Positions 6,478 through 21,485 of a stretch of 64,000 nucleotides of DNA are shown here, one piece after another. Source of the stretch: a virus. A program made the position numbers and the translations under genes. A model generated the notes under the pieces. The model was given only the letters and a program-made list of their open reading frames with translations. It searched no databases and was not told where the DNA came from. The DNA lies in the IMG/VR virus record IMGVR_UViG_3300048088_000336, positions 1 through 64,000 of that record; one strand, given 5' to 3'. Position 1 is the stretch's first letter. Each line of letters starts with the position of its first letter.

Positions 6478-6836
6478 CCGCCGAGTGCGCGCCCGGGTGC
6501 GGCGCCTGCTGCGAGACGGTGGTGATGGTCGTGCCCCCGGAGGACATGGAGGGACCGTCGGGGCCGTTCGCGCGGGAGCACTGGCACGTGTTCGAGAAGC
6601 TGGACAATCCCGAGTCGCCGACCGGGATCGAATACCACCTGCGGTGTGACCAGTTCGACCCGCATACTCGACGCTGTGGGGCGTACGCGGTGCGGCCACC
6701 GATCTGCGCGAACTACCCCCACTACGGGTCACCCATGAAGCCCGGCCACTCGAAGGCCGACGCGATCCCCCTGGTGTGCGCGTTCCAAGCTGATGTGCGC
6801 CGGGTTCTGCCCCTGGTGGCGATCAATGGCCGGTGA
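6474..6836 (+). CDS. YkgJ-family CxxCxxCC cysteine-cluster protein
   Basis: CAPGCGACC...C..FDPHTRRCGAYAVRPPICANYP. Confidence 0.85.
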   Translation: MTAECAPGCGACCETVVMVVPPEDMEGPSGPFAREHWHVFEKLDNPESPTGIEYHLRCDQFDPHTRRCGAYAVRPPICANYPHYGSPMKPGHSKADAIPLVCAFQADVRRVLPLVAINGR

Positions 6837-8724
6837 ACCCGAGGTGGTCGCTACTGAGGCGCCGTCACCGACGGATGACCCGGCCACCGGGCACACCGGG
6901 GGCATGCTGGCCCTGGTCCCCGACAATGTCGACGAACTCGCCGTCGAGGGTGGCCTGCCACCGGGGGAACTGCACCTGACGTTGATCTACCTGGGTGATG
7001 ATGTGACCACCTGGCCACCCGAGCAGACCGCGCACCTCAAAGCCCTGATCCAAGCCAGCGGACCGGGGTTGGATCCGGTATCGGCCCGCATCATGGGTCA
7101 CGCCCTGTTCAACCCCGATGGGGGTGCTGCCGGGGACAAGAATCCGTGCGTCGTCTACCTGGTGTCCGACACGCCCGACCTGGAACCCCTGCACAAATGG
7201 GCCACCTGGACGACGACGACGGGCGAGAATTACCCGACCCCGCCACCGCAGCACACCCCGTTCATTCCGCACATCACAGCGGGGGAGGACACCGGGGTCG
7301 ACGAGTTGTCCTACACCGGGCCGGTGCGGTTCTCGACACTGCGCCTGGCGTTGGGTGATGAGGTGACCGACGTCCCGTTGGGCGGCGGCGATCAGGAGGC
7401 TGACGTGCCCGGAGTTCAAGCGAAGTCGATCACGTTTACGCCCCCGAAAGCGGTCCGGGACGCCGCGTGGGACCTCGACGGGCCGGTCGCTGCTGATGTT
7501 GTCGAGGGCAAGGCCCTGGACGGTAATGGTTTGGCGTGGGTCGCGGCGCACTGTGGGCAGGCCGGTCGGGACTGGGCGCGGGACATGCTCGGTCGCGTCG
7601 AGGTCAAAGCCGACATGAACATGGGCCGGTACGCGGGCGGGGAGCACCCGAAGCTGGACAGTATCGAGGCCCTGCACAAGGCGGTGGAGGAGCACGGAAA
7701 CTGCCCCCCGGAGGACCGTCCGGCGCGGGTCCGCAAACTGCGGGCGCGGGCGAAGGAACTCGGTGCCAGCGCACACACCTACTCCCGGATCGACACCCTG
7801 GAGGGGGCGAGCACCGACGGGTCCGGGATCAAGGATGTCGACGACGGTGATGTGGAGTTCAAGTCGTGGGCGCCCGGCAACTCGGAACCTTCACCGATCC
7901 CGCACCTGGCCGCGTTGGGGCAGGCGATTACCGCGCATCCGAAGGTGCGGGACTCGCACAAGGCCAAGCACAAGAAGCATCTGGCTGCTGAGGCGCAGCG
8001 CCTGGGCGCGGGACCGGACGTGCACGCGAAGATCGGGTACCTGGAACCGCACTCGTTCTTCAATCAAACGAAATCCTTGGACGACTACGATGTCGAGTTC
8101 AAGGTCACGTCACCGGCGCCGGGGGCGTCGAGGTTGCGGGAGTACTGGGCGCGTAACCCGAAGGGCCGCGCGAAGTGGCGTCCCGGTAGTGGTGGGGATT
8201 TCAAGCGCCTGCGCCGTCATCTGGCGAAGTACGTGCACAATCCGAAGATCCTTAATGGGTTGACGGCGAACATTCACAAGATGGCCACCGGTGTGTGGCC
8301 TGGTAAAAACGCGCACACGATCCGGGAGAAGCCCGGTAAACCACTCACCTACGGAATCAAATCACTGGTCGCGTGGGAATCGGTGGAGCAGAAGACCGCC
8401 GCCACCGATGTGGACATGGCGGAGTTGTTCGCCGGGATCGAGGACTGGGGGCGCGAGTTCGTCACCGACGACGCGGAGGCCTACTTGGCCGCGCTGGCCG
8501 AAATCCAGGGCGACACCCCCGACGATGACATCGAAGCCCCCAGTGATGTGGAGCGCACCGCCGCGCTGGCCGCGCTCGGCGCGAAACTGGTTACCGACCC
8601 GGACCCGCAGGTTGAGGTGTCCGACAATGTCCAGGACACCGCACCGGACACCCCGGACATCGAACCGGGTGACCTGGCCAGCTTGTTCACTGATGCCCCC
8701 CCGGCTGTTGAGGCCCCAGCGTGA
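6826..8724 (+). CDS. Multi-domain head-associated protein: N-terminal 2H phosphoesterase (2'-5' RNA ligase/Acb1-like fold), small modules, acidic tail
   Basis: Two HxT motifs (LHLTL near 6973, PHITA near 7270); two similar helical modules; W..NPKGRAKWRPG..GDFKRL..HL..ATGVWPG module; GTGA overlap with the giant. Confidence 0.8.
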   Translation: MAGEPEVVATEAPSPTDDPATGHTGGMLALVPDNVDELAVEGGLPPGELHLTLIYLGDDVTTWPPEQTAHLKALIQASGPGLDPVSARIMGHALFNPDGGAAGDKNPCVVYLVSDTPDLEPLHKWATWTTTTGENYPTPPPQHTPFIPHITAGEDTGVDELSYTGPVRFSTLRLALGDEVTDVPLGGGDQEADVPGVQAKSITFTPPKAVRDAAWDLDGPVAADVVEGKALDGNGLAWVAAHCGQAGRDWARDMLGRVEVKADMNMGRYAGGEHPKLDSIEALHKAVEEHGNCPPEDRPARVRKLRARAKELGASAHTYSRIDTLEGASTDGSGIKDVDDGDVEFKSWAPGNSEPSPIPHLAALGQAITAHPKVRDSHKAKHKKHLAAEAQRLGAGPDVHAKIGYLEPHSFFNQTKSLDDYDVEFKVTSPAPGASRLREYWARNPKGRAKWRPGSGGDFKRLRRHLAKYVHNPKILNGLTANIHKMATGVWPGKNAHTIREKPGKPLTYGIKSLVAWESVEQKTAATDVDMAELFAGIEDWGREFVTDDAEAYLAALAEIQGDTPDDDIEAPSDVERTAALAALGAKLVTDPDPQVEVSDNVQDTAPDTPDIEPGDLASLFTDAPPAVEAPA

Positions 8725-11700
8725 CCACCACATTCCCTGATGACATCGAGGTGTCCGGGGACGTCCCGGACGATCTGACCGCGCTGGAATGGAAGTCCCT
8801 CCCGGCCGGTGAGACGTCGTCGCCGCTGACGGGGGTCATCGACCACAACGACGCGGACGGCACGATCACCGCACTGGTCGCGGTGACCGGGGTGAAGGAT
8901 TCGGTCGGGGACGTCATCGTGCCCGGCAGTGCCGATAAAGCGGTGAAGCGATTGAAGCCCAAGGGGGTGATGTCACACAACTGGGGGGATCGGGTATCGC
9001 GACTGATTTGGCATAAGGAACTGATGCCGGGTGACTCGATGTTGCCGAAGCAAACACCCCAGGGTGACCCGTGGCCCGCTAACGCGGGTGGTTTGCTGAT
9101 CAAAGCGAAGTACAATCTTGATAAGCAATCCGGTCGGGACGCTTACGCGGACGCGAAATTCTATGGGGCCGATGAGTGCTTCTCGATCGGCTACAAGGTG
9201 CGTCCGGGCGGTTCCCGGATGCGTGGCGCGACCCGGTATTTGCATGACTATGACCTGTACGAATGGTCACAGGTGCTTCACGGGGCTCACCCGTTGGCGA
9301 CTTTGACCGGCGTGAAATCCCTTGCAGACACTGTTGAAGCACCGTGGTACGATGGCACCCGTTCCGGTGACATCGAGGGGGATACCGCTTTGCCCGACGG
9401 TGTAGAAACCAAGGTCCGTGTCGTACGTGACGCGGACTTCTGGCACCTGCCCATCGGCACCCCCATCAAGCCCGGCATGGTCCCCCACGGCCTGAACCGG
9501 CCCCCCACCGAGCAGGAGATCCACGCCACCACCGCCGACGCCGGGGACGACAACGGTCTCCACGGGGCCCCCGACGCCGTCGCCACCCCCGGGATGCCCG
9601 GTGCGCCCGCCCCAGGCGGGCTCGGCATGCCCCCCATGCCGGACATGGCCCTGCCCATTCCCGGTCCGAAAGACGGGGACGCACCCACTGGTGACCCCGA
9701 TGCCGCTGTCGCGTTGTTGCGCACACGCGTGGGGGAGATCGAGAAACTCAACACTCCCGCCGCCCGGACCGCTAGCGCGGCACTGACTCCGTTCCTCGTT
9801 CCCGGTGCCCCGGTGCGCGCATCGGAGGATGGGCAGCTCGTCGCTGTGCACACCGGGGACGCGTGGCGGTTCGCTGACACCGCCAACGGTGGCGTCATGC
9901 AGGTCACCCTTCCGGGCACCCTGCCGCAACCCAACGTCGACATGGTGCTCCATGAGCTGGCCGGTGTCGGCATCCCGTGGGATTCGGTGGACGCACGGCG
10001 CAAGCGGTGGGAAAACCCTTCCCAGCTCCAAGCCGACAAGGCGACCGTGGCGGGCATTTTCGCTCGCGCGGGCACCCCGCCGACCACAACCCCGCCGGGC
10101 ATCGGTGGCGCTGGCATGGGCACCCCGCCACCGCCCGGCGTTCCGGGTGCGCCGGGGGCGGGACAGGGCGCTCCCGGCGCCCCACCCGCTACACCGGGGA
10201 TGCCGAACGCTTCTGTGGGTGCACCGCCGAGCATTCCCGCTACACCCGCACCGGCCCCCAACGTCCCCACAGCGCCCCCCACTCCGACTGTCCCAGCTAC
10301 GCCACCGGTGTCACCGAAGAAGTTCCCCAGGGGCTCAATCAAGGGCCACGGCATCGCCCCCGGTGACCGGATCCGGGTGCACGGGCACCCGAGGGGCACC
10401 CTGGAAGGCACGGTCGAGTCCGGCAAGAACGGGCACTCGATCGTTCACGATGACGGGTCGAAGACGTGGCTCGGTGGCACCGGGTCACGCCATCACGTGG
10501 AGAAGCTCGGCAAGGCCGCCGACCAGCCACCCAAACTCGCCACAGCATCGGCCGCGCCCCCAGCGTCGAAACCTGCACCGGAGCGCAAGCTGGCGTTCGC
10601 TCGATTCGACCGGATCGAGAACGTTCATGACCTCCCTGGCGCGATCCGAAGCGCGATCCTAAAACCGGACACCCTCGACAATCCGGCGCGCAGGCAAGCT
10701 CTCGCCGTCGCCCTGCACTCGTTGACAGAACCAACCGCCCCGAATAAACCCCCCGCCAAAGCTCACGTCCCTGACGATGTTGACCCCGCCGCGCTGGCCG
10801 ACGAATTAGACGGACTCGCCCAAGAGATCGAAGATCGCGGCAAGGGCCGCATAGCGATCACCCCCGCCCACCGAGGATCCGGCCGCACCGTCGTCGCCGA
10901 CCTGCGCGCGTTGGCTGCGGGGATCCGCACTCCCGCTGCGTCCGCCCCGGAGTCAGCGAAACCCCCTGCCCCAGTCGTCCCGGAGCCGTACAAGCCCACC
11001 GGCAACATCAACGCCCCCCATGAGCTGACCGACGAGCAGCTCGCCACTGAGGCCGCGCACGCCGCTACCCGGCACGCCCGTGCCCGTGCCAGTGGTGTCC
11101 CGAAAACGTCGGTGGAGCATCACGACTCGAAACTGGCGAACACCGTTTTCCAGGACGAGATCCGGCGTCGTGCTGTGGGTGGCGAGTCCGGGGTCAAACC
11201 CGCACCCAAACCCGGGCCCCCGGCCGCGCCGGAGACCCCAGCCGTCCCGGACAAGACCGGGGAAGTCCCCGAAGACGCACCCGATACCACGGTGCCCCTG
11301 CCGCAGGAGGCCGTGGATTCCGCTGACCGGATCCGTGCCGAGGCACTCGGCATCATCGACGGACCTGACGGGCAAGAGGAAGTCACTCCCGAGGTCGCCG
11401 ACCGGCAGGACCGCGTGGAGGGCTACCTCGTCGCCGGGGAAGCCGCCCTGGCCGATAAGACCGATGGGCAGCTCAGTGAAACCCGCAAAGACCTGACCGA
11501 CGAGCTGGCGCTTCAGGATGAGCTGAATCGCCGCGACACACAACGGCGCAAAGAGAGCGCCGCCGCCCGCAGTAGCCGATCCAGCAGTACGGCCGACCCC
11601 GTCAGGTCGGGCGACACCCCCGGAGCAACGGGCGACGGCACCCCCGAGGATACCGGCCCGAAACTACGTCCCGGTTTCGCTGGCGCCGCCGAGGACCTCG

Positions 11701-14700
11701 GCGACGCCCTGAACGCGAAACCCCGCGATGACGAGACGGTGAAAGCCGCCGCCGACCGGTTCGCGAAAATGTTGCGCCGTCACGGTGACTCAACCTCGTT
11801 CGACGCGGTCCGCACCGCCATCGGGGACGACATTCACGCCGCCATCGCGTCGGGTGACCTGAAGGCGGGGATGCTGTTCACCGCCGCTGGCGGTGTCCGG
11901 GAGCAGCGGCGGGTCGCCCGCAATGAGGGCGCGAAGAAGCGCCGGTTGGCGAAGCGCCTGGACCGGGATCGGATCAAGGCCCTGATCGGGTCAGTGGACG
12001 CGGAGGTCCGGGCCCGGAAGGATCGCGGCAGCGGTGCGGCGGCACCCAAGCCATCCCCGGCCCCGAGCGTCGCCGCATCGCCCAAAACGGGTCAGGGAAT
12101 CACCGCCACCGCCCAACACAACGCCGACGGCGGTGTCCACTACCTGGTTACGCACCCCGACGGGTCGTACACCACTGCCCGCTACAACTCCACCGGACCC
12201 CGCCGCACCCACGCGAGCACCGTGGACCGGGGGCCCGGCCTGAAACCGAACTCCGGTGGCCGCTACATCACGTCGATTCACTCCTCGGAGGAGTCCGCCG
12301 ACCAGTCGCACGACGCGTTCCCCAACGTCCCGCACATCGTCACCCCCATTGAGCACATCGGGGAGACCGGCAAGGCGGAGACTCCTGTCGTACCGGAAGC
12401 TTCCGGCCCGCGCGCCGATGCTGAGCAAGCCATCCGCGACGGTGACCGTATCGCCCTGGTCGATGCCCTTAAGGCGATGGGGGACACCGGGCCGCGTGAG
12501 ACCGCGATGCGCCTGCTGTCCCTGTCCGAAGACGACGCGATCACCGAACTCGATGACCATCCTGGGAAACGGGAAACAGCCAACCGCGCGGACCGCCATG
12601 CCGCCGCGCAGGTCGCTAACGCTGCCGGTGACTCCGCTGCCCTGACGGCCGCACTCACGGGGGAGCACCGCAAGCCTGACAATGCGCTGGATTCCAGGGA
12701 TGCGGCGGCAGCGCGGGAACGGGCCGCCGCTAAGCGCGCAGCGGTCAAGCCCGCCGTCGTCGTCGCTGACGGGCCGTCGAGGAGGGCGGAGTTCGACGCG
12801 TCCACCGCTGAAGACTTCCCCCCCAACACCCCGGTTCGACTGTTTCAAGACTGGGATCGAGAGCATGCCCGACCCGACCTCGCGAGCGACGTTACGGCGG
12901 TGCGCCGTGCCCGGAATGGCTACGTCACCGTGCGGGAATCGAAGGGCACGACAGTCGATGTTTTCCCGCGCCAGTTGGAGAAGCGCGATCAGGGTGCACA
13001 ATCGCCGCAGAAGGATGGAGGCGACGATGCCCAACGCGCTAGCGACACAAGCCGAAGCGTGGTACCAGAAGTACCAGCCGCAGACCTACGCGGGGATAGT
13101 AGACAAACCGAAGTTCTTCCAGGACCTGGCCGACCGAGCCCAGGAGCAGATCACCCAGGTCGCGGACCGGTTGGCGGGCCCGGACCAACCGGGGGAGACA
13201 TACCGGGACAAACTGGGGCGCCTGACAGCGGCACAACACGACGCGACGGAACTGGTGATGAGGGACTTCCTGGAAGCCCCACCGCCCCCGAACTGGACGG
13301 ACAGTCCCCTGCCGAGCCCGCCGAGCCCGGACCCGTCGATGCTTCCCGAGAAGACGGACCCGTGGGGGGACGCGATGGCGGACTTCGGGAACGCGAGCGC
13401 GGAACTGGATCAACAGAACCGGGTGACGAGGCAGCGGGAACTGCCGATACTGCCCCCGCGCCCGAGCCGGACAGTGCCGACGGCGTAACCGCCGAGCAGC
13501 CGGAGGCCGACACCGGGCAGGTAGATGCGATCCCCGACACCGGGGAGTCGTTTCACCCGTCGAGTGCTGATGATTTCGCGCCCGCCGGGAAGCGGGCGAA
13601 ACTGGATGCGAACCTCGCCGCCCTGCGGGTCCTGCGCCAGTTGCAGACCGAGCACCGCTCCGCCACCCCGGAGGAGCAGAGTGTCCTCGCCCGTTGGGCC
13701 GGGTGGGGTGGCCTGCCGGAAGTGTTCGACGACAAGAAGACCGCCTATGCGAAGGAACGCGACGAACTCCGTGGACTGCTGTCCGGTGGCGAGTGGAATG
13801 AGGCGAAACGCAACACCCTCAACGCGCACTACACATCGCCTGTCGTGGTGCAAGCACTGTGGAAGGCGATGGGTGATCTTGGATTCGACGGGGGGCGTGT
13901 ACTTGAGCCCGGTTCCGGGTCAGGCACCTTCATCGGCTACGCCCCCGAGGGCGCCGACATGGTCGGGGTCGAACTGGACTCGACGACCGCTGCGATCTCT
14001 CGTGCCCTCTACCCGCACGCGACGGTAAGGAACGAATCGTTCGCCGACACCCGGCTACCGGCCGGTAGCTTCGATGCGACCATCGGCAACGTGCCCTTCG
14101 GGGACTTCGCCCTGCGGGATCGGGTGCACAACCCCAACCGCGCCGAGTCGATCCACAACCACTTCATTCTCAAATCCCTCGCGTTGACCAAACCGGGTGG
14201 CATCGTCACTGTCCTGACCTCCCGGTACACCCTCGATGGCGAGAACCCCCGGGCCCGAAAGAAAATGGCGGAGATGGGGGACCTGCTCGGCGCGGTCCGC
14301 CTGCCCACCGGTAGCCACTCCAAAACCTCCGGTACCGACGTCATCGAAGACGCCCTGATCTTCCGGCGTCGTGAGCCGGGCGCGGATCCCCTCACCCCAC
14401 AAGACTGGATCAATTCCAGTAAACGCGACATTGACGGGATCGAGATCCCCGTCAACGACTACTTCACCGCGCACCCCGACCAGGTCCTCGGCGACGAGCA
14501 CGCCGAGAAGGGTCAGTACGGCAGCGGGTCCCTCATCGTGACCGGTGACAAGGCGATGCCGGAGCTGCCCGCCGCTCTGGCTCGAATCACCGACGGGGCG
14601 AACACCGCTGGCGCCACCGCTTCGGCGCGCATGGAAGGCCTCGCCGACTTCACCGCCCCCGACGACACCCGCCACGACGGGCACATCGCCGCCCACGACG

Positions 14701-17700
14701 ACGGCAGTTTCACCCAGGCCTCCCAAGGCGCGGCCGTACCGTTTGCGGTACCGGAGAAGCAGGCTGAGGAGTTGCGTGGCCTGATCGGCATGCGCGACAC
14801 CCTGTCGACCCTGCTCACCGCCGAATCCCAGTCCGTGTCCAACTCCCCGGAGATCCGGGAACTGCGCAAGACACTGAACGACCAGTACGACGCCTACGTC
14901 AAACGCTACGGGCCGATTAACCGCTACACCCTGACCAAGTCGGGGGCCCGCAACGCTCCCGGTCAGGGCGGGTTCCGGCGTGACCCCATGTCGGCGATCG
15001 TGCGGGCCCTGGAGATCTACAACCCGGAGACCGGCAAAGCTGTTAAGACCGACATCTTCACCAAACGGTCCGTGTCCCCCCGGGAGATCCCCACCCACGC
15101 CGACAACCCCGAGGACGCACTGGCGTTGTCCCTGGACACCTACGGGGAAGTCAACCTCGGTGAGATCGCGAAAATGTTGCACACCGATGAGGCCACCGCC
15201 CGCAGACGTCTCGGTGACCTCATCTTCGAGCAGCCACCGCTGACCGATGACGAACTCGACAAGTCGTGGACCGCGCACCAGGAAGACCACGGGGGTATCC
15301 CTGACCAGGACATCGCGGCTGGGACCGTGGACCTGTCCTCGGTCGGCGAGTCGGTCCGGGCTGAGGGCAATCTCGAACCGGCCGCCGCCTACCTGTCCGG
15401 CAACGTGCGCCGCAAACTGGCCGCCGCCGAAGCCGCCGCCGCGCACGATCCCCGGTTCCAAACCAACGTCGACGCGTTGAAGAAAGTCATCCCCGCTGAT
15501 CTGGGGGTCGATGAGGTCGACGGCCGGTTGGGTGCCGCGTGGATCCCCGCTGATGACGTCAAAACGTTCATGATCGACCTGTTGCACGGTGGCGACAACC
15601 GGTACAACCCCGTGCAGGTGTCCACCTCCGGGGGTGGGATCTGGACCGTCGTCGGGGGCGATCACGGCAACGTCGCCACCGAACAGTGGGGCACGAAACG
15701 GAAGTCCGCTGGTGAACTGATCGCCGCCATGCTGGAGCAGAAACCGATCCGTGTAGTGGACACGATCGACGGGAAGTCCTACCCGAACCTGGAGGAAACC
15801 CTCGCGGCGCAGGCGAAGGCCGACGAGATCTCCGAACGTTTCTCCGAATGGTTGTTCGAGGACTCCGCGCGCACCAAACGTCTCCTGGCCGCCTACAACA
15901 ATCAGTTCAACGCGGTCCGGTTGCGGTCCTACGATGGTGTGGATCGGGTGTTCCCGGGGATGACGTCGAGCGGGTGGAAACCCCGCGCGCATCAGGTGGC
16001 GGCCGTCAACCGGATCGTCTCGGAACCGTGTGCGCTGCTCGCCCACGTGGTGGGTGCGGGGAAGACCGCTGAGATGGCGATGGGTGCCGCCGAACTCAAA
16101 CGCCTGAGGATGGCGCGCAAACCCGCGATCGTGGTGCCGTCGCACATGCTGGAGCAGTTCACCCGCGAGTACCTCCAAATCTATCCGAGGGCGAAGATCC
16201 TGGCCGCTGGCACGGAGGACCTGGACGGGGATAAGCGCCGGGAGTTCGTGGCGCGCGCCGCTACGGGGCAGTGGGATTGCGTCATCCTCACCAAGGATGC
16301 GATGCAACTCATTCCCATGAGTCAAGACGCGCAGAAAGCCTACATTGATCGTGAAATGGCCACGATGCGCGCCCAGTTGGAGGCCGCGCAGGGCAGTGGT
16401 GGGGACGCCGCGCATCAAGCGACCGTGAAGAAAATGGAAAAGGCCGTCATCAAGGCTGAGGAGGCCCTGAAGGCGAAACTGGAGAAGACGAAAGACGCGG
16501 GGGTGTCTTTCGAGCAGACCGGCATCGACTACCTGTTCGTCGATGAGGCCCACCAGTACTCGAACCTGCGGACCGTGTCCAACATACAGGGCGCGGGGGC
16601 GTCCGGGTCGGGTATCGCCACCGACCTGCACATGAAGATCGAGCACCTGCGGGCCAACAATGAGTCGGGCCGGGTGGCGACGTTCGCTACCGGCACACCG
16701 ATTCGTAACACCGTGACACAGGCATACATTATGCAACGGTTCATGCGCCCCGACCTGCTGAAAGAAGCGGGGGTGCATTCGTTCGACCAGTGGGCCGCCA
16801 CGTTCGGGCAAACCGTTGACGAGATGGAACTCAAACCGGAGGGCACGGGGTTCCGGCAGACCACCCGGTTCGCGAAGTTCCGCAATGTGCCTGAACTGCT
16901 GCGCCTGTTTCAGATTTTCGCGGACGTCAAGACCGCTGAGGACCTCAACCTGCCCACCCCGGACCTGGCCGGTGGGTCGGTGGACAATGTGGTTGTCCCG
17001 AGCACCGATGAGCTGCGGGAGACCATGGCGGAGTTGGCGCACCGCGCCGACCAGTACCGGGCGGGGTCCCCGGAGAAGCGCACCAACGCGGCCGGTACCG
17101 GTGAAGTCGACGACATGATGCTGCTGATCAGCATGGATGGTCGCAAAGCCGCGATGCGCCAGTCGGACAAACTGGACATGGCGGCGGAGAAGATCGCGGA
17201 CATCTGGGGAAAGAACAAGAACAAGCCCATCCCGAAAGACTTGGATGACCCCACCGCTGGGGATGACCCCCCACCCGGTGGGATGCAAATCGTGTTCTGT
17301 GACATGTTCACCCCCAAGGGTGGCGCCAAGAGTGACGTCGAGCAGCGAACCGAGTACGACGACGGGGACAACTTCGACGCCTACGCTGCCTTGCGGGCGA
17401 AACTGGCGGACCGGGGCATGGATCCGAAACGGATCCGGTTCATGCACGAGGCCAAGAATGACCGTCAGAAGGCCGAACTGTTCGCCGCCGCACGCAATGG
17501 TGGCCTGGATGTTCTCGTCGGCTCCACGGAGAAGATGGGGGTCGGTACGAACGTCCAGAGACGCGCGGTGGCCCTGCACCATTTGGATGCCCCGTGGCGC
17601 CCCTCGGATCTTGAGCAGCGTGACGGCCGGATCATGCGCCAAGGCAATGCCAACGACGAGGTCTCAATCCACCGGTATGTCACCGAGGGCTCATTCGACG

Positions 17701-19781
17701 CCTACATGTGGCAGACCCTGGAACGCAAAAAGAAGTTCATCGACCAGATCATGGGCGGCAGCCTCGACCAGCGGGAGATCGAGGACGTTGGTGAGACGGC
17801 CCTGTCCTACGCTGAGGTCAAGGCGCTGGCGACAGGCAACCCCCTGCTGTTGCAGAAGGCCACCGTCGACACCGCGATCGGGAAACTGTCCCGCCTGGAG
17901 CGCACCCACAACCGCACCCAAACCAACCTCCGGCGTGACGTCGTCGCCTTCCGGGCCAACGCGGAAGCCTCCGACGCCTACGTCAAAAAAATGGACGCGG
18001 CCGTCAAAGCCCGCACTGACATCACGGGCGACAACTTCGCGATGACCGTGCACGGCACCACCACCCGCGACCGGGGTGAGGCCGCGTCCATGCTCAAAGC
18101 CGCTGTCGAGGACGTCATCCGCAACGACTACGGGTACGGGAAGCGGGCCAAGCCCGTCGCGGAGTTCGGTGGACACAAACTGATGGCCACCGTCGAGGAT
18201 CATTACGACCGCAATGGGGCCCGCCGCCGTGGCGTGACCTTGACCTGGGACGGGGTGCCCGGGGGTGCGAGTGGTGGTAACGCGACCGCCGCGTCGATCA
18301 GCTACCAGCAGCTCGCCAGTGGTGGCATCGGGCAGGGCACCCTGGCGACGCTAGCGCATTCCCTGCACTCCTTCGAGTCGCACCGCGACATCTCCGCTGA
18401 TCACGCCACCCGTTTGCGGTCCGAAGCGGATGTGATGGAAGCCCGGGTGGGCACCGAGTTCCCGCACGCGGGCGCACTGAAAACCGCCCGGGATGAGTCC
18501 GCCCGGCTGAAGGCCACAATGGAGGCATCCGGGATCCGGGAGGACGCCGGGCCCGGTGAGTCGGACGCGGCGAAGAACTTGGCCACCGCGCGGACGAAAG
18601 CCGCTGGGCAGGCCGCCCGCATGGGCCGCTCCGGTGGAAACGCGGCCACCACGCTCAAGAGGTTCGGGAACTCCACCGCCACCCCCGGCGCGGTGGCCTC
18701 CCCCAACGGCGCGGTCGGCGCGTACATGCACAACGGGGACTTCAAAGTGTTCCTGACCGATGACGGGGTCGATGTCCGGGACCTGGCCGGGATCTCCTCC
18801 GATGACCTCAAGGGTGTGGTCAAGGACCCGCAGGGGTTGGTGGATGACCTGGCGAAACTGGACCTTCCCTTCGATGAGGGCGCGCGCTCCCTGTATCGGC
18901 GTTGGAACGGGGACTACTCCTACAGCCCACCGGACTACTCGAAGTCCTACGAGGAACGGGAAGCGATCGCTCAAGCCAAACGGGACAAGCTCAAAGCTGG
19001 GGAGACGGCCGACAAGAACGCGATCAAGGCTGTGTTCGCGCGGCACCTCACGGACGCACCTGTTGAACCGGAACTGACCGGGGTCGACGCCGCGAAACGG
19101 GCCGCTGCCCGCGCGGCGGAAAACGACCGCATCGGGGACCTGGCGAAGAAGCGACTGAAGCGGTTCGCGAAAGCCAGTAAACGCATCCCCCACTACGCGT
19201 CCCCCGACGGGAAGATCGGGGCCGTCACCGACACCGATGGCGGGCTGGAGTTCTTCGCCACCGGCAACGGCATGCTGCTCAACGCCCCCGGTTCGGTGGG
19301 GCCCGTCGATGACCCGCAGGCCGTGGTCGATGAGATCGCCGCACTCGGTGTGCCCCTGGGTGATTCAGAAGTCCGGTATGAGCGGTGGGGGCGTGGGGAC
19401 GGGCAGCAAAATGAGGACGTGACCGCGATCCGGGGCATCCTCACCCGGCATGCTGACCTCATGGGTGAGAAGTCGGCGATCATCGGGGCGTGGGAGTTGC
19501 TGCGCGCGCAGCGCCTCGACATTGAAGTGAAGGCCCGCGCGGACCGGGCGGCTGGGGAGGTCACCCCCACCCCGGACCCGGAACTGGAACCGTTCACGGT
19601 GCTCGTCGCCGATGACGTTCGCTACACGATGGACGCATCCGGGACCCTGCAACGTCTCATGCCGTGCCCGGCGTGCGGTCAGGAGATGATGGTGCCCGCG
19701 TTCGGGGAGTCCGAGACACCACCGTGCCCCTCGTGCGGTGCGGTCCCCACTGTGGACAAGCGCCGGGCACCGGTGGGTTGA
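8721..19781 (+). CDS. 3686-aa giant: HK97-type prohead protease fused to a DarB-like N6-adenine methyltransferase, an SNF2/SF2 helicase and a C-terminal zinc ribbon
   Basis: Protease DSVGDVIVPG, SHNW, FSIGY, LYEWSQVLHGAHPLA (about 8850-9315); MTase ANLAAL..EQSVLARWAGWGG, VLEPGSGSG (13899), GNVPFG (14088); helicase AHVVGAGKT (16041), DEAH (16542), ATGTP, GVGTNVQ, QRDGRIMRQGN (17616); CPAC..CPSC at the end. Confidence 0.9.
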   Translation: MTTTFPDDIEVSGDVPDDLTALEWKSLPAGETSSPLTGVIDHNDADGTITALVAVTGVKDSVGDVIVPGSADKAVKRLKPKGVMSHNWGDRVSRLIWHKELMPGDSMLPKQTPQGDPWPANAGGLLIKAKYNLDKQSGRDAYADAKFYGADECFSIGYKVRPGGSRMRGATRYLHDYDLYEWSQVLHGAHPLATLTGVKSLADTVEAPWYDGTRSGDIEGDTALPDGVETKVRVVRDADFWHLPIGTPIKPGMVPHGLNRPPTEQEIHATTADAGDDNGLHGAPDAVATPGMPGAPAPGGLGMPPMPDMALPIPGPKDGDAPTGDPDAAVALLRTRVGEIEKLNTPAARTASAALTPFLVPGAPVRASEDGQLVAVHTGDAWRFADTANGGVMQVTLPGTLPQPNVDMVLHELAGVGIPWDSVDARRKRWENPSQLQADKATVAGIFARAGTPPTTTPPGIGGAGMGTPPPPGVPGAPGAGQGAPGAPPATPGMPNASVGAPPSIPATPAPAPNVPTAPPTPTVPATPPVSPKKFPRGSIKGHGIAPGDRIRVHGHPRGTLEGTVESGKNGHSIVHDDGSKTWLGGTGSRHHVEKLGKAADQPPKLATASAAPPASKPAPERKLAFARFDRIENVHDLPGAIRSAILKPDTLDNPARRQALAVALHSLTEPTAPNKPPAKAHVPDDVDPAALADELDGLAQEIEDRGKGRIAITPAHRGSGRTVVADLRALAAGIRTPAASAPESAKPPAPVVPEPYKPTGNINAPHELTDEQLATEAAHAATRHARARASGVPKTSVEHHDSKLANTVFQDEIRRRAVGGESGVKPAPKPGPPAAPETPAVPDKTGEVPEDAPDTTVPLPQEAVDSADRIRAEALGIIDGPDGQEEVTPEVADRQDRVEGYLVAGEAALADKTDGQLSETRKDLTDELALQDELNRRDTQRRKESAAARSSRSSSTADPVRSGDTPGATGDGTPEDTGPKLRPGFAGAAEDLGDALNAKPRDDETVKAAADRFAKMLRRHGDSTSFDAVRTAIGDDIHAAIASGDLKAGMLFTAAGGVREQRRVARNEGAKKRRLAKRLDRDRIKALIGSVDAEVRARKDRGSGAAAPKPSPAPSVAASPKTGQGITATAQHNADGGVHYLVTHPDGSYTTARYNSTGPRRTHASTVDRGPGLKPNSGGRYITSIHSSEESADQSHDAFPNVPHIVTPIEHIGETGKAETPVVPEASGPRADAEQAIRDGDRIALVDALKAMGDTGPRETAMRLLSLSEDDAITELDDHPGKRETANRADRHAAAQVANAAGDSAALTAALTGEHRKPDNALDSRDAAAARERAAAKRAAVKPAVVVADGPSRRAEFDASTAEDFPPNTPVRLFQDWDREHARPDLASDVTAVRRARNGYVTVRESKGTTVDVFPRQLEKRDQGAQSPQKDGGDDAQRASDTSRSVVPEVPAADLRGDSRQTEVLPGPGRPSPGADHPGRGPVGGPGPTGGDIPGQTGAPDSGTTRRDGTGDEGLPGSPTAPELDGQSPAEPAEPGPVDASREDGPVGGRDGGLRERERGTGSTEPGDEAAGTADTAPAPEPDSADGVTAEQPEADTGQVDAIPDTGESFHPSSADDFAPAGKRAKLDANLAALRVLRQLQTEHRSATPEEQSVLARWAGWGGLPEVFDDKKTAYAKERDELRGLLSGGEWNEAKRNTLNAHYTSPVVVQALWKAMGDLGFDGGRVLEPGSGSGTFIGYAPEGADMVGVELDSTTAAISRALYPHATVRNESFADTRLPAGSFDATIGNVPFGDFALRDRVHNPNRAESIHNHFILKSLALTKPGGIVTVLTSRYTLDGENPRARKKMAEMGDLLGAVRLPTGSHSKTSGTDVIEDALIFRRREPGADPLTPQDWINSSKRDIDGIEIPVNDYFTAHPDQVLGDEHAEKGQYGSGSLIVTGDKAMPELPAALARITDGANTAGATASARMEGLADFTAPDDTRHDGHIAAHDDGSFTQASQGAAVPFAVPEKQAEELRGLIGMRDTLSTLLTAESQSVSNSPEIRELRKTLNDQYDAYVKRYGPINRYTLTKSGARNAPGQGGFRRDPMSAIVRALEIYNPETGKAVKTDIFTKRSVSPREIPTHADNPEDALALSLDTYGEVNLGEIAKMLHTDEATARRRLGDLIFEQPPLTDDELDKSWTAHQEDHGGIPDQDIAAGTVDLSSVGESVRAEGNLEPAAAYLSGNVRRKLAAAEAAAAHDPRFQTNVDALKKVIPADLGVDEVDGRLGAAWIPADDVKTFMIDLLHGGDNRYNPVQVSTSGGGIWTVVGGDHGNVATEQWGTKRKSAGELIAAMLEQKPIRVVDTIDGKSYPNLEETLAAQAKADEISERFSEWLFEDSARTKRLLAAYNNQFNAVRLRSYDGVDRVFPGMTSSGWKPRAHQVAAVNRIVSEPCALLAHVVGAGKTAEMAMGAAELKRLRMARKPAIVVPSHMLEQFTREYLQIYPRAKILAAGTEDLDGDKRREFVARAATGQWDCVILTKDAMQLIPMSQDAQKAYIDREMATMRAQLEAAQGSGGDAAHQATVKKMEKAVIKAEEALKAKLEKTKDAGVSFEQTGIDYLFVDEAHQYSNLRTVSNIQGAGASGSGIATDLHMKIEHLRANNESGRVATFATGTPIRNTVTQAYIMQRFMRPDLLKEAGVHSFDQWAATFGQTVDEMELKPEGTGFRQTTRFAKFRNVPELLRLFQIFADVKTAEDLNLPTPDLAGGSVDNVVVPSTDELRETMAELAHRADQYRAGSPEKRTNAAGTGEVDDMMLLISMDGRKAAMRQSDKLDMAAEKIADIWGKNKNKPIPKDLDDPTAGDDPPPGGMQIVFCDMFTPKGGAKSDVEQRTEYDDGDNFDAYAALRAKLADRGMDPKRIRFMHEAKNDRQKAELFAAARNGGLDVLVGSTEKMGVGTNVQRRAVALHHLDAPWRPSDLEQRDGRIMRQGNANDEVSIHRYVTEGSFDAYMWQTLERKKKFIDQIMGGSLDQREIEDVGETALSYAEVKALATGNPLLLQKATVDTAIGKLSRLERTHNRTQTNLRRDVVAFRANAEASDAYVKKMDAAVKARTDITGDNFAMTVHGTTTRDRGEAASMLKAAVEDVIRNDYGYGKRAKPVAEFGGHKLMATVEDHYDRNGARRRGVTLTWDGVPGGASGGNATAASISYQQLASGGIGQGTLATLAHSLHSFESHRDISADHATRLRSEADVMEARVGTEFPHAGALKTARDESARLKATMEASGIREDAGPGESDAAKNLATARTKAAGQAARMGRSGGNAATTLKRFGNSTATPGAVASPNGAVGAYMHNGDFKVFLTDDGVDVRDLAGISSDDLKGVVKDPQGLVDDLAKLDLPFDEGARSLYRRWNGDYSYSPPDYSKSYEEREAIAQAKRDKLKAGETADKNAIKAVFARHLTDAPVEPELTGVDAAKRAAARAAENDRIGDLAKKRLKRFAKASKRIPHYASPDGKIGAVTDTDGGLEFFATGNGMLLNAPGSVGPVDDPQAVVDEIAALGVPLGDSEVRYERWGRGDGQQNEDVTAIRGILTRHADLMGEKSAIIGAWELLRAQRLDIEVKARADRAAGEVTPTPDPELEPFTVLVADDVRYTMDASGTLQRLMPCPACGQEMMVPAFGESETPPCPSCGAVPTVDKRRAPVG
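13027..13488 (+). CDS. Nested overlapping gene (+1 frame inside the giant), TnpV-like helical protein
   Basis: GGAGG 13017-21, 5 nt, then ATG 13027; 153 aa MPNALATQAEAWYQKYQPQTYAGIVDKPKFFQDLADRAQEQI..AGPDQPGETYRDKLGRLTAAQHDATELVMRDFL; the giant's frame is low-complexity over the same span. Confidence 0.75.
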   Translation: MPNALATQAEAWYQKYQPQTYAGIVDKPKFFQDLADRAQEQITQVADRLAGPDQPGETYRDKLGRLTAAQHDATELVMRDFLEAPPPPNWTDSPLPSPPSPDPSMLPEKTDPWGDAMADFGNASAELDQQNRVTRQRELPILPPRPSRTVPTA

Positions 19782-19844: not shown

Positions 19845-20129
19845 GGGGGTGATTTCACTGTAGCGGCGTGTCGGGCTCGCGGCCAGTCGTGAACGAAAGA
19901 CGCCCCCAATGTGGATCGGGGGCGCTTCCGGCTGGACTCACTACTCCACCGACGGAGATAGTGGTTCCCACCGTACGCGGCGTGGCGCGCGCCCCGCCAG
20001 CCGAATCGGTGATCTACTCCGCTCCACGCGCCTGGTGCTGACCGGTGCGAGTCATTCCGGGCACGCTGCCGGGGGCCTCGCGCTGCCCAGCTCGTGCTCA
20101 CTCACACCGAGCACACAGGAGGGGCGGAA

Positions 20130-21485
20130 GTGCCCGACACACTGACCCACCACGACAAAGATTTGATTGATCGTGGGCGGGCTGAGGTCAAGAGCCTCAA
20201 CACCAAACTGGATGAGATCACCAAGTCTGGGTGGCTGGACGGCGACGGCAACATGCACGTCGAACCGGGTGCCCTCGCGGAGTTCAAGTCGACCCTGGCC
20301 GCCGCTGAGGAAGCGCACGGCATCGTCGCCGCCCTCGAACGCAAAGGCGCCCTCGATGCGTGGCTGGACGCCCCGGCGACGGATTCCCCGGCCGCGTTGG
20401 CCGCTGGGCAGGCCGGTGGCGGCAGTCAGCTCATGCGCCCAGCGGAGTACAAGTCTTTGGGGCAGCGGTTCATTGAGTCGACCGAGTTCAAGGGCCACCG
20501 TGACTCCGGGTTCATGGACTCCGCTTTCGTTGTCGAAGACCAGGAGATCACTTACGGGGCGCAGTTCAAGGACGTGCACTCCGGGTCGATCGGCACCGTC
20601 ACCCACCCCGGTTTCGGCACGGTTCAGCGCGCACCGATGGTGTCGGCGCCGATGCTCACCTGGCGGGTGCGTGATCTTTTCCCGCAGATGAACACCAACT
20701 CGGTGATGATTGAGTTCATTGAGGAGTTGGGGTTCGTCGACGCGGGCGACAATGCCGCCGCGATGGTGCCCGAACGTGAGGGCACACCACCTACGGACAC
20801 GTTCGGTCTGAAGCCGAAGTCAACGATTCACTTCAACATCAAGACCACGCCGATTCGGACCCTGGCGCACTGGGTTCCCGCGTCCCGCAACGTGCTCGAT
20901 GACGAACCGCAGTTGCGGGGAATCATCGACACGCGCCTGCTGTACGGCCTGCGCCTGGTCGAGGACCAGCAGTTGCTGCTGGGTGACGGCACTGGACAGA
21001 ACCTGCTCGGCATTTTCAACACGCCGGGTATCCAATTGTTCCCCTCCGGCACCTACCACGCGCCCACCAACGAAACGTATGTCGACGCCATTCGCCGGGG
21101 TGCGACTCGCGTCATGCTGGCACAATACGACCCGACCGGCGTAGTTGTTCATCCTTACGATTGGGAAAGGATGGAGCTGACCAAGGACACCCAGGGCCGG
21201 TACCTGGTTGCCGGGTCGGTCACTTCCGGTGCCGAGAAGCGTTTGTGGCAGATGCCCGTGGTCGCCACCCCCGCGTGCCCGGAGGGCACGGCCCTGATTG
21301 GTGCGTTCGGTTTGGGCGCGCAAGTTTTCGACCGGATGCAATCCAATATCCGCACCGCTGACCAGCACGCGGACTTCTTCATTCGTAACGCGATCGTGGT
21401 CCTGGCGGAGGAGCGGCTCGGTTTGGCCGTGTACCGGCCCGCGTCGATGGTGAAGGTCAACCTGGCCGCCGCGATCGCCGCCTGA
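20130..21485 (+). CDS. Major capsid protein (HK97 fold) with N-terminal scaffolding/delta region
   Basis: TLAHWVPASRNVLDD, EDQQLLLGDGTGQNLLGI, VVHPYDW..KDTQGRYL, FIRNAIVVLAEERLGLAVYRP; SD AGGAGG. Confidence 0.95.
   Translation: MPDTLTHHDKDLIDRGRAEVKSLNTKLDEITKSGWLDGDGNMHVEPGALAEFKSTLAAAEEAHGIVAALERKGALDAWLDAPATDSPAALAAGQAGGGSQLMRPAEYKSLGQRFIESTEFKGHRDSGFMDSAFVVEDQEITYGAQFKDVHSGSIGTVTHPGFGTVQRAPMVSAPMLTWRVRDLFPQMNTNSVMIEFIEELGFVDAGDNAAAMVPEREGTPPTDTFGLKPKSTIHFNIKTTPIRTLAHWVPASRNVLDDEPQLRGIIDTRLLYGLRLVEDQQLLLGDGTGQNLLGIFNTPGIQLFPSGTYHAPTNETYVDAIRRGATRVMLAQYDPTGVVVHPYDWERMELTKDTQGRYLVAGSVTSGAEKRLWQMPVVATPACPEGTALIGAFGLGAQVFDRMQSNIRTADQHADFFIRNAIVVLAEERLGLAVYRPASMVKVNLAAAIAA

What the first reader, a model, noticed from the sequence alone, without database searches (positions are those of the whole stretch)
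13017..13488. Fully nested TnpV-like gene in the +1 frame of the giant, just before the methyltransferase
A strong SD and ATG at 13027 open a 153-aa ORF with ordinary helical protein composition. The giant's own frame across the same bases reads as Gly/Pro/Arg/Asp filler, the usual signature of reading through another gene. The protein resembles TnpV-like proteins, which I recall lying next to methylase-helicase genes on mobile elements. Inference: a two-gene cassette was captured, both frames were kept open, and the small partner is still made separately, perhaps as a regulator or chaperone of the DarB-like enzyme.
Basis: partly seen in the sequence, partly recalled or inferred. Interest (0 to 1): 0.8.

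Follow-up and report, generated by a model that had tools for sequence, protein, structure and literature searches.

The report
TnpV-like gene nested inside giant gene
A complete small gene for a helical TnpV-like protein sits one base out of frame inside the floppy linker of this actinophage's 3,686-codon head-protease/DarB-like antirestriction gene; about a hundred related phage, plasmid and chromosomal elements keep the same two-frame layout, which no paper I found describes.

Summary
The ORF at 13027-13488 (153 aa; GGAGG at 13017-13021) lies in the +1 frame of the giant ORF 8721-19781.

- **Codon signal.** Across the overlap, GC3 moves from the giant frame (0.40-0.58) to the +1 frame (0.83-0.87).
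- **The small protein.** Residues 3-87 match TnpV proteins of actinobacterial plasmids (E down to 7e-12). The domain folds as a confident helical bundle (pLDDT 90.8).
- **The giant's reading.** It is 90% G/P/D/A/R/T/E/S/Q: a linker between the head-protease end and the MTase-helicase.
- **Both frames are selected.** The giant frame is stop-free over tnpV in all 25 diverged lineages with usable codon tables (joint chance about 1e-21). It is open in 76 of 79 genome loci and in three related phages. Substitutions follow the TnpV frame.
- **Recoding.** No conserved slippery site or homopolymer run supports it.

In plasmids the giant already starts upstream of tnpV, with its own ribosome-binding site and a conserved N-terminal peptide. 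The phage replaced that peptide with a head-protease module.

TnpV's function is unknown, and translation was not tested. This scan had already noted the same nested gene in other genomes. No paper I found describes it.

The parts
13017..13021 (+). Shine-Dalgarno-like GGAGG, 5 nt upstream of the tnpV-like ATG
   Evidence: Read directly from the sequence. Purine-rich SD-like motifs also sit before the ATG in L010, L011 and L012 and in the sampled plasmid loci.
13027..13488 (+). Nested tnpV-like gene, 153 aa (P0001), in frame +1 of the giant; the stop is TAA at 13486-13488
   Evidence: GC3 is 0.83 in this frame. Full-length homologues P0004-P0006 are 54-62% identical over 93-96% of the length. 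The nearest ESM Atlas clusters are named 'TnpV protein family'.
13027..13281 (+). TnpV-like helical N-domain, residues 1-85
   Evidence: tblastn to plasmid TnpV genes covers residues 3-87 with E down to 7e-12. AlphaFold2 with 28 sequences gives mean pLDDT 90.8 and pTM 0.74, with helices 4-16, 18-23, 27-50 and 59-83. A profile search finds 1,371 clusters, and the top 150 are all stand-alone proteins of 90-303 aa.
13282..13485 (+). Phage-clade-specific Pro-rich tail of the TnpV-like protein (PPNW.DS..P.P.TPDPSM.P ... ELDQQ.R ... P.LP.RP), with one predicted helix at residues 112-137
   Evidence: Conserved in P0004-P0006, L010 and L011 but absent from the plasmid homologues. Model confidence is low. 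Substitutions in this part show no clear frame preference.
8721..19781 (+). Giant ORF (3,686 aa): head-maturation-protease end, about 1,200 aa of unknown function, the linker, then the DarB-like MTase plus SNF2-type helicase and C-terminal domains
   Evidence: phrog_80 head maturation protease matches aa 40-206 at E 1.3e-17. phrog_10089 DarB-like antirestriction matches at E 0, with MTase-family matches from about aa 1606. The portal gene lies upstream and the major capsid gene at 20094-21485 downstream.
13026..13490 (+). Giant-frame linker (aa 1436-1590) written over tnpV
   Evidence: Composition is 90% G/P/D/A/R/T/E/S/Q and GC3 about 0.50. There is no stop, although about 3 are expected. The region holds no SD-preceded start codon in the giant frame.
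13515..18608 (+). Conserved DarB-like core of the giant, beginning with GQVDAIP...FHPSSADDFAPAGKRAKLDANLAALRVL 27 nt after the tnpV stop
   Evidence: No start codon separates the tnpV stop from this block, so the core can only be reached by reading through the overlap.

Best explanation
This is a true same-strand gene-within-a-gene.

**The giant.** One mRNA region is read in two frames. Ribosomes that start at the head of the giant gene read 13026-13490 in frame 0. That produces a 155-residue disordered Gly/Pro/Asp/Arg spacer joining the head-protease and unknown N-terminal modules to the DarB-like MTase-helicase.

**The small gene.** Other ribosomes start at the internal GGAGG-N5-ATG (13017/13027) and make a separate 153-aa protein. 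Its first 85 residues form a TnpV-family helical bundle.

**Which frame came first.** TnpV is the older, strongly constrained frame. The giant's reading is a tolerated overprint, kept only free of stops.

**History.** The nested pair is ancestral to a large set of DarB-like polyvalent genes of plasmids, conjugative elements and phages. This phage clade inherited it and put a capsid-targeting protease module in place of the short N-terminal peptide that the plasmids carry.

**Function (inferred, not shown).** TnpV is a small partner of the adjacent MTase-helicase module, made in cis from the same message. The basis is that its position directly 5' of the MTase domain never varies.
For: **The TnpV frame is a real gene**
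- GC3 is 0.83-0.94 in four phages, and 0.90 pooled over the 72 genome-contig loci used.
- It is homologous to plasmid TnpV proteins, which in turn hit Pfam PF14198.
- The fold is confident.
- The SD and ATG are conserved.
- Over 152 pairs, substitution rates by codon position p1/p2/p3 are 0.10/0.07/0.23.
- Amino-acid identity is higher in the TnpV frame than in the giant frame.

**The giant frame is read through**
- No stop lies anywhere in 8721-19781.
- Conserved giant-frame protein runs right up to the tnpV ATG in L010, L011 and L012, and resumes 27-117 nt after the tnpV stop.
- No usable internal start exists.
- The giant frame is open across tnpV in 76 of 79 genome loci, while the third frame is closed.
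- It is open in all 25 lineages (at most 60% identical) that have usable codon tables; the product of the chance probabilities is 1e-21.
- T-ending codons make up 1-3% of the phage tnpV genes, against 8-10% in the rest of the giant.
- Plasmid giants carry their own SD and ATG and a conserved N-terminal peptide upstream of tnpV. Giant-frame codon-position GC goes from 0.75/0.56/0.77 upstream to 0.90/0.69/0.41 in the overlap and 0.77/0.57/0.82 after it.

**The same layout elsewhere**
- It occurs in mid- and low-GC DNA: Klebsiella phage SopranoGao, Vibrio phage VvAW1, and a 39% GC contig deposited as an unverified Listeria phage, whose nested ORF scores 29 bits on Pfam TnpV.
- The related phages L010 and L011 have the same protease ... 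tnpV ... DarB-like architecture.
Against: - There is no direct evidence of translation for either frame. No RNA run holds the sequence, and no Ribo-seq or proteomics is available.
- P0001 itself scores on no TnpV model. Family membership rests on transitive homology.
- Permuting synonymous codons within the gene does not by itself show stop avoidance (P = 0.63, 0.10 and 0.45). The signal lies in the overall depletion of T-ending codons and in the number of independent lineages.
- In very GC-rich plasmids the chance of an open frame is high for any single locus (up to 0.76).
- TnpV function is unknown. Fold searches give only generic helical matches (best Z 5.5).
- From my own recollection, not tested here: TnpV also occurs on Tn4451-type elements without a DarB-like gene. 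That would weaken the idea of an obligate partner.
Confidence: 0.8

Rival explanations
1. The giant ORF is an artefact of GC-rich sequence. The real genes would be an upstream head protein, tnpV, and a separate MTase-helicase. Frame 0 would stay open across tnpV only because its first codon position coincides with tnpV's GC-rich third position.
For: - The geometry does disfavour stops. For single, very GC-rich plasmid loci the chance of an open frame is 0.4-0.76.
- RefSeq often annotates tnpV and a shortened helicase as separate genes.
- The within-gene permutation test is not significant.
Against: - The upstream protein has no stop codon and the MTase-helicase has no start codon near the conserved block.
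- All 25 diverged lineages tested are open, with a joint probability of 1e-21.
- The giant frame was open upstream of the MTase match in all three mid- or low-GC loci examined, including the 39% GC contig; whether it runs on through the helicase there was not checked.
- Conserved giant-frame coding flanks the overlap on both sides, and the frame relation is kept in 76 of 79 loci.
Confidence: 0.05
2. tnpV is a decaying relic in the phage. The giant's linker would simply have been built from a former tnpV gene that is no longer expressed, so the +1 ORF survives by inertia.
For: - The C-terminal tail shows flat substitution rates over the three codon positions (0.34/0.37/0.34).
- No expression data exist.
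Against: - The ORF, its SD-ATG and its stop are intact in the window, L010 and L011, and L012 is intact as far as its contig runs; these are 45-71% identical. Three more metagenomic homologues are also intact.
- In the N-domain, third codon positions change more than the first two (about 0.47 against 0.28-0.33), and amino-acid identity is higher in the TnpV frame.
- GC3 is 0.83-0.94 in the TnpV frame.
- A relic would accumulate stops and frameshifts.
Confidence: 0.07
3. Recoding rather than two products. A programmed frameshift or transcriptional slippage would join TnpV in frame to the upstream module or to the MTase-helicase, so that TnpV is a domain of the giant.
For: - The frame relation is constant (tnpV always +1 of the giant), as it would be for a -1 frameshift cassette.
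- A G GGC CCG heptamer is present in the window at +149.
Against: - 53 of 79 loci, including L010 and L011, have no X XXY YYZ heptamer in the tnpV frame.
- The heptamers that do occur follow from the AGPD codons and are not known efficient shift sites.
- Homopolymer runs are essentially absent.
- A frameshift would not need the giant frame to be open from upstream of the tnpV ATG, yet it is.
- None of the top 150 family representatives is an in-frame fusion longer than 303 aa.
Confidence: 0.05

Closest known systems
TnpV of Tn4451/Tn4453-type transposons (Pfam PF14198) and the PGAP-annotated 'TnpV protein' of actinobacterial plasmids
   Same: - A small protein with an all-helical N-domain of about 85 residues.
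- It shares the conserved pattern P..Y...FF..LGEQA..I..L...LAGPD.PGE.YL.K.GRLN.A...AEE.V.
- The plasmid members sit directly 5' of a methylase-helicase gene.
   Different: - P0001 does not reach the Pfam or NCBIfam models itself.
- It carries a phage-clade-specific Pro-rich tail of 68 residues.
- It is wholly nested inside another gene rather than free-standing.
Embedded same-strand overlapping genes of phages and bacteria (lambda Rz1 inside Rz, phiX174 genes, comS inside srfA); cited from general knowledge
   Same: A complete small gene with its own ribosome-binding site, in the +1 frame and entirely inside a larger gene on the same strand, with both frames maintained.
   Different: - Here the inner gene is the old, folded, widely distributed one. 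The outer gene's reading is the young, disordered overprint.
- The pair is conserved across phages, plasmids and chromosomal elements of several phyla.
P1 DarB and DarB-like polyvalent proteins (Iyer et al. 2017, PMC5512222)
   Same: The giant carries the MTase plus SF2/SNF2 helicase dyad (phrog_10089, E 0). It lies in a head module, which fits delivery by the virion.
   Different: - P1 darB has no nested ORF, and its neighbour Ulx is not TnpV-like.
- The polyvalent-protein paper mentions neither TnpV, overlap nor frameshift.
- This giant is fused to a head maturation protease.

Membership tests
TnpV (Pfam PF14198) | A match to the family HMM at or above the gathering score of 27 bits | tested here: not met
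   P0001 has no TnpV hit at E up to 10 in Pfam and none in NCBIfam. Its plasmid homologues score 13.6-28.4 bits, with only the L006 protein above the cut-off. The nested ORF of the unverified Listeria-phage contig scores 29 bits.
TnpV (Pfam PF14198) | Significant sequence homology to recognised TnpV proteins | tested here: met
   tblastn E is 7e-12 to 1e-5 against 40 plasmids, many annotated TnpV, over residues 3-87. The top ESM Atlas clusters are named 'TnpV protein family', score 0.91. hhalign of the actinobacterial profile against the nested TnpV of the 39% GC contig gives E 2e-4 but a probability of only 47%.
TnpV (Pfam PF14198) | A small, stand-alone, all-helical protein of about 100-190 aa | tested here: met
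   153 aa, with helices 4-16, 18-23, 27-50 and 59-83 at pLDDT 90.8. The top 150 family representatives are 90-303 aa.
Same-strand embedded (overprinted) gene pair | Both reading frames open over the whole inner gene, beyond chance, in diverged relatives | tested here: met
   76 of 79 loci are open, and all 25 lineages tested are open, with a joint P of 1e-21.
Same-strand embedded (overprinted) gene pair | Purifying selection on the inner gene's protein | tested here: met
   Position-specific substitution rates are 0.10/0.07/0.23. Amino-acid identity in the TnpV frame exceeds that in the giant frame.
Same-strand embedded (overprinted) gene pair | The inner gene has its own translation start | tested here: met
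   GGAGG-N5-ATG in the window, with SD-like motifs and an ATG conserved in the relatives. This is sequence evidence only.
Same-strand embedded (overprinted) gene pair | Both proteins are actually made | not testable with these tools
   No RNA holder was listed. Ribo-seq or mass spectrometry is needed.
Programmed -1 ribosomal frameshift cassette | A conserved slippery heptamer at a fixed position in the upstream frame | tested here: not met
   53 of 79 loci have no heptamer, and no position is conserved across lineages.
DarB-like polyvalent antirestriction protein (the host gene) | An N6-adenine MTase domain fused to an SF2/SNF2 helicase | tested here: met
   phrog_10089 at E 0 and phrog_11801 at 3.9e-189. 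Pfam gives weak ResIII, Helicase_C and SNF2-rel_dom hits, and Eco57I below its cut-off.

The most novel reading that the evidence does not exclude
tnpV nested in the +1 frame just before the MTase domain is an ancient, obligatory feature of a large class of DarB-like polyvalent antirestriction genes in phages, plasmids and conjugative elements of several phyla. In this reading, TnpV is a so-far unrecognised small subunit that the methylase-helicase needs for folding, delivery or activity. It would be made in cis from the giant's own message, so that its dose is coupled to the giant's translation.
Probability: 0.35. Interest if true: 0.85.

Novelty: new variant of a known kind. Interest (0 to 1): 0.72.

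Why it matters
- **A rare kind of conservation.** Long same-strand overlapping genes that stay conserved across phyla are very rare in bacteria and their mobile elements. Here a folded family protein sits inside the linker of one of the largest antirestriction proteins, in about a hundred elements.
- **Annotation.** Pipelines handle the pair inconsistently. Either tnpV is missing, or the giant is truncated and loses its N-terminal peptide or delivery module.
- **How polyvalent proteins can grow.** A new N-terminal module can be joined to the enzyme by reading straight through a gene that has to stay in place.
- **A candidate partner.** It points to an unstudied candidate partner of DarB-like enzymes, which can be tested in cultured plasmids and phages.

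Tried and rejected
- **Family scans of P0001.** Pfam, NCBIfam and PHROGs gave no family hit.
- **tblastn of P0001 against the phage collection.** No match.
- **Frameshift or slippage signals.** No conserved heptamer or homopolymer run.
- **Fold searches of both models.** Foldseek against the PDB and VIA-align wide gave only generic helical matches (best Z 5.5), so there is no functional lead.
- **Ulx of P1 as a TnpV counterpart.** No Pfam hit, and hhalign probability 0.8%. P1 darB has no nested ORF.
- **Internal sigma-70-type promoter or terminator in 12400-13700.** None found; the scan is poorly suited to actinobacteria.
- **SD-sequestering hairpin.** Weak in the window and L012 (z -1.3 to -2.0), absent in L010, L011 and the plasmids. 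Not supported as a general feature.
- **Within-gene synonymous permutation.** Not significant.
Full report
**1. What is in the window**

The window comes from a 79-kb IMG/VR virus record. The finding lies in a head module:
- portal gene (40-1806);
- a MuF-like head-morphogenesis gene (1760-3139);
- a protein with 2H/RNA-ligase-like matches (6793-8724);
- the giant ORF 8721-19781;
- the major capsid gene (20094-21485; Phage_capsid E 5.9e-40).

The giant (3,686 aa) begins with a head-maturation-protease domain (phrog_80, aa 40-206, E 1.3e-17). From about aa 1606 onward it is a DarB-like MTase plus helicase (phrog_10089, E 0).

- GGAGG at 13017-13021, ATG at 13027, TAA at 13486-13488, 153 codons, frame +1 of the giant.
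- The giant's own reading of these bases (aa 1436-1590) is 19% Gly, 15.5% Pro, 11% Asp, 10% Ala and 8% Arg. It has 9% hydrophobic residues and no K, N, F, M, Y, W or C.

**2. Which frame carries the coding signal**

GC3 in the giant frame is 0.75-0.92 on both sides of the overlap. It falls to 0.40-0.58 between 12960 and 13500, while the +1 frame rises to 0.83-0.87. Three related phage contigs show the same pattern: TnpV-frame GC3 of 0.88-0.94 against 0.37-0.50 in the giant frame.

**3. Homology of the +1 product**

- Direct scans of P0001 against Pfam, NCBIfam and PHROGs find nothing.
- tblastn finds 40 actinobacterial plasmids (E down to 7e-12, residues 3-87). Many hits are annotated 'TnpV protein', and each lies directly 5' of a methylase/helicase gene.
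- Those plasmid proteins hit Pfam TnpV (PF14198) at 13.6-28.4 bits against a cut-off of 27.
- Three full-length metagenomic homologues (54-62% identity) conserve all 153 residues, including the Pro-rich tail.
- A profile of the N-domain finds 1,371 clusters at 50% identity. The best 150 are all small stand-alone proteins of 90-303 aa, with no in-frame fusion to a giant.
- With 28 aligned sequences, AlphaFold2 folds residues 1-90 as a helical bundle at mean pLDDT 90.8 and pTM 0.74.
- Fold searches give no informative relative.
- ESM Atlas places P0001 next to 'TnpV protein family' clusters.

The +1 ORF therefore encodes a real, folded, TnpV-like protein. Strict Pfam membership is not met for this sequence itself.

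**4. Is the giant frame really read through?**

In the phage clade:
- The related phages L010 (55%), L011 (45%) and L012 (71%, cut by the contig end) have the same layout: tnpV with an SD and ATG, in frame +1 of a giant ORF.
- L010 and L011 also start with the protease domain and, in L011, continue into the DarB-like core.
- In L010, L011 and L012 the giant frame encodes a conserved helical domain (NHMRAARAAAD.GDFDTAHGHLDKAQ.LNPER..LW.KARGII.EQ) right up to the tnpV ATG.
- The conserved block GQVDAIP...DLAPAGKRAKL.AN resumes 27-117 nt after the tnpV stop.
- No stop ends the upstream part. In the window and L010 no SD-preceded start codon serves the downstream part; L011 has one GTG with a weak GAGG motif 75 nt after its tnpV stop, 42 nt before the conserved block.

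Stop-avoidance statistics:
- Resampling synonymous tnpV codons with each locus's own codon usage predicts 2.4-3.5 stops in the giant frame of the phages. P(open) is 0.022-0.067, and none is observed.
- T-ending codons make up 1-3% of the phage tnpV genes, against 8-10% in the rest of the giant.

**5. The arrangement is family-wide and older than the phage**

A scan of species-representative genomes with the plasmid TnpV domain returned 79 loci across Actinomycetota, plus one from a Dehalococcoidia MAG.
- In 76 of them the frame -1 to tnpV is open from upstream of the tnpV ATG, through all of tnpV. In most it continues into an ORF of more than 1,000 aa. The third frame closes at once.
- Among lineages that are at most 60% identical and have usable codon tables, all 25 are open. 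The product of the individual chance probabilities is 1e-21.
- In most of the plasmid and chromosomal loci outside the Micromonospora group, a giant-frame ATG/GTG/TTG preceded by GGAGG or GGGAG lies roughly 25-70 codons upstream of tnpV. It opens a conserved peptide: M-A-(R/K)-rich ... QLSF(E/D)xLW ... PE(E/D)xR(D/N).
- GC by giant-frame codon position runs 0.75/0.56/0.77 in that leader and 0.90/0.69/0.41 across tnpV, which is the TnpV-frame signature. It is 0.77/0.57/0.82 just after the tnpV stop and 0.73/0.50/0.87 further on.

So the MTase-helicase gene of these elements starts before tnpV and runs through it. The phage did not create the overlap. It swapped the short leader for about 1,435 aa of head-associated sequence. 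Micromonospora plasmids carry a different extension of about 420 aa.

**6. The layout is not limited to GC-rich DNA**

I checked three DarB-like genes from the phage collection. Each has a complete +1 ORF of 108-114 aa ending just before the MTase domain:
- Klebsiella phage SopranoGao, GC 58%;
- Vibrio phage VvAW1, GC 50%;
- a contig deposited as an unverified Listeria phage, GC 39%.

All three products resemble TnpV by eye. The product from the 39% GC contig scores 29 bits on Pfam TnpV and the Klebsiella one 17.7 bits; the Vibrio one has no Pfam hit.

The archetype, P1 darB, has no such ORF. Its neighbour Ulx is not detectably related to TnpV.

**7. How strongly each frame is constrained**

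- Over 152 locus pairs, differences per site in the tnpV frame are 0.10, 0.07 and 0.23 for codon positions 1, 2 and 3. This is the pattern of purifying selection on TnpV.
- TnpV's third positions, which are the giant's first positions, change at about 0.8 times the rate of third positions in the non-overlapping part of the giant.
- In the phage comparisons, amino-acid identity is higher in the TnpV frame than in the giant frame: 0.52-0.69 against 0.36-0.58 in the N-domain.

The giant's reading is thus a weakly constrained spacer, kept mainly free of stops. This is the reverse of the usual overprinting picture only in that the outer, larger gene supplies the young, disordered frame.

**8. Alternatives**

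- **Recoding.** There is no conserved slippery heptamer or homopolymer run, and the giant frame is open from upstream of the tnpV ATG.
- **Relic ORF.** The ORF, its SD-ATG and its substitution pattern are intact at 45-71% identity.
- **GC artefact.** The number of independent lineages, the three mid- and low-GC examples, and the missing stop and start codons all argue against it.
- **SD-sequestering hairpin.** One forms between the conserved block GGTGCACAATCGCC and the SD/ATG in the window and in L012. It is weak (z -1.3 to -2.0) and absent elsewhere.

**9. What remains unknown**

- Translation of either frame is untested. No RNA run holds the sequence.
- TnpV has no known function. The invariant position directly 5' of the MTase module, in elements that otherwise shuffle their domains freely, is the only argument for a functional partnership. 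That is an inference.

**10. Prior knowledge**

- Full-text searches found no paper that links TnpV or DarB-like genes with an overlapping or nested gene.
- The survey of polyvalent proteins (PMC5512222) mentions neither TnpV nor overlap.
- Earlier notes of this scan describe the same nested tnpV in other genomes: Bacillota conjugative elements, proteobacterial phages and an actinobacterial plasmid.
- My analysis reached the same conclusion independently. I tested part of those claims here.

Noticed in passing
L032-L100, 25-60 codons upstream of each tnpV ATG (for example L050:4925-5000 and L093:4871-5000): The plasmid and chromosomal giants begin with a conserved peptide: M-A-(R/K)-rich ... 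(D/G)QLSF(E/D)xLW ... PE(E/D)xR(D/N). From memory it resembles a beta-clamp-binding motif (QL[SD]LF or QLxLxL). The phage giants lack it.
   Followed up: no
NZ_CP108881.1 (L001), CP000476.1 pTC2 (L003), and the RefSeq plasmids L004-L007: Annotation of the pair is inconsistent. Some records call one long 'helicase' across an unannotated tnpV. Others call tnpV and start the helicase downstream, which drops the conserved N-terminal peptide and linker.
   Followed up: partly
L103:2139-2465, L105:2040-2369, L104:555-899: Klebsiella phage SopranoGao, Vibrio phage VvAW1 and a 39% GC contig deposited as an unverified Listeria phage each carry an unannotated TnpV-like ORF. It lies in the +1 frame of their DarB-like gene, just before the MTase domain.
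   Followed up: partly
L106 (phage P1): 9995-10435 and 10469-17236, minus strand: P1 darB starts directly with the MTase region and has no nested ORF. Ulx, encoded just downstream, shows no similarity to the TnpV-like profile.
   Followed up: yes
window 12993-13032; L012:7962-8000: The nucleotide block GGTGCACAATCGCC, shared by the window and L012 just upstream of tnpV, can pair with the SD/ATG region. The hairpin is weak (z -1.3 to -2.0) and is not seen in L010, L011 or the plasmids.
   Followed up: partly
L096:1-2602; L001:7743-8994; L006:5677-6982: Other lineages carry different long N-terminal extensions fused through tnpV. The Micromonospora plasmids have about 420 aa. A Micromonosporaceae MAG contig has more than 730 aa, including a GGEGGGQWVD motif.
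   Followed up: no
L079, L087, L099; also L051, L062, L076, L084, L100 and L002: In three loci the giant frame is interrupted inside tnpV. In several others the giant ORF is cut short soon after tnpV. These are probably decaying copies in which tnpV outlives the helicase.
   Followed up: no
window 6793-8724: The gene before the giant hits both a 'head maturation protease' PHROG (E 6e-32) and an 'RNA ligase' PHROG (E 9e-30) over the same residues 14-209.
   Followed up: no
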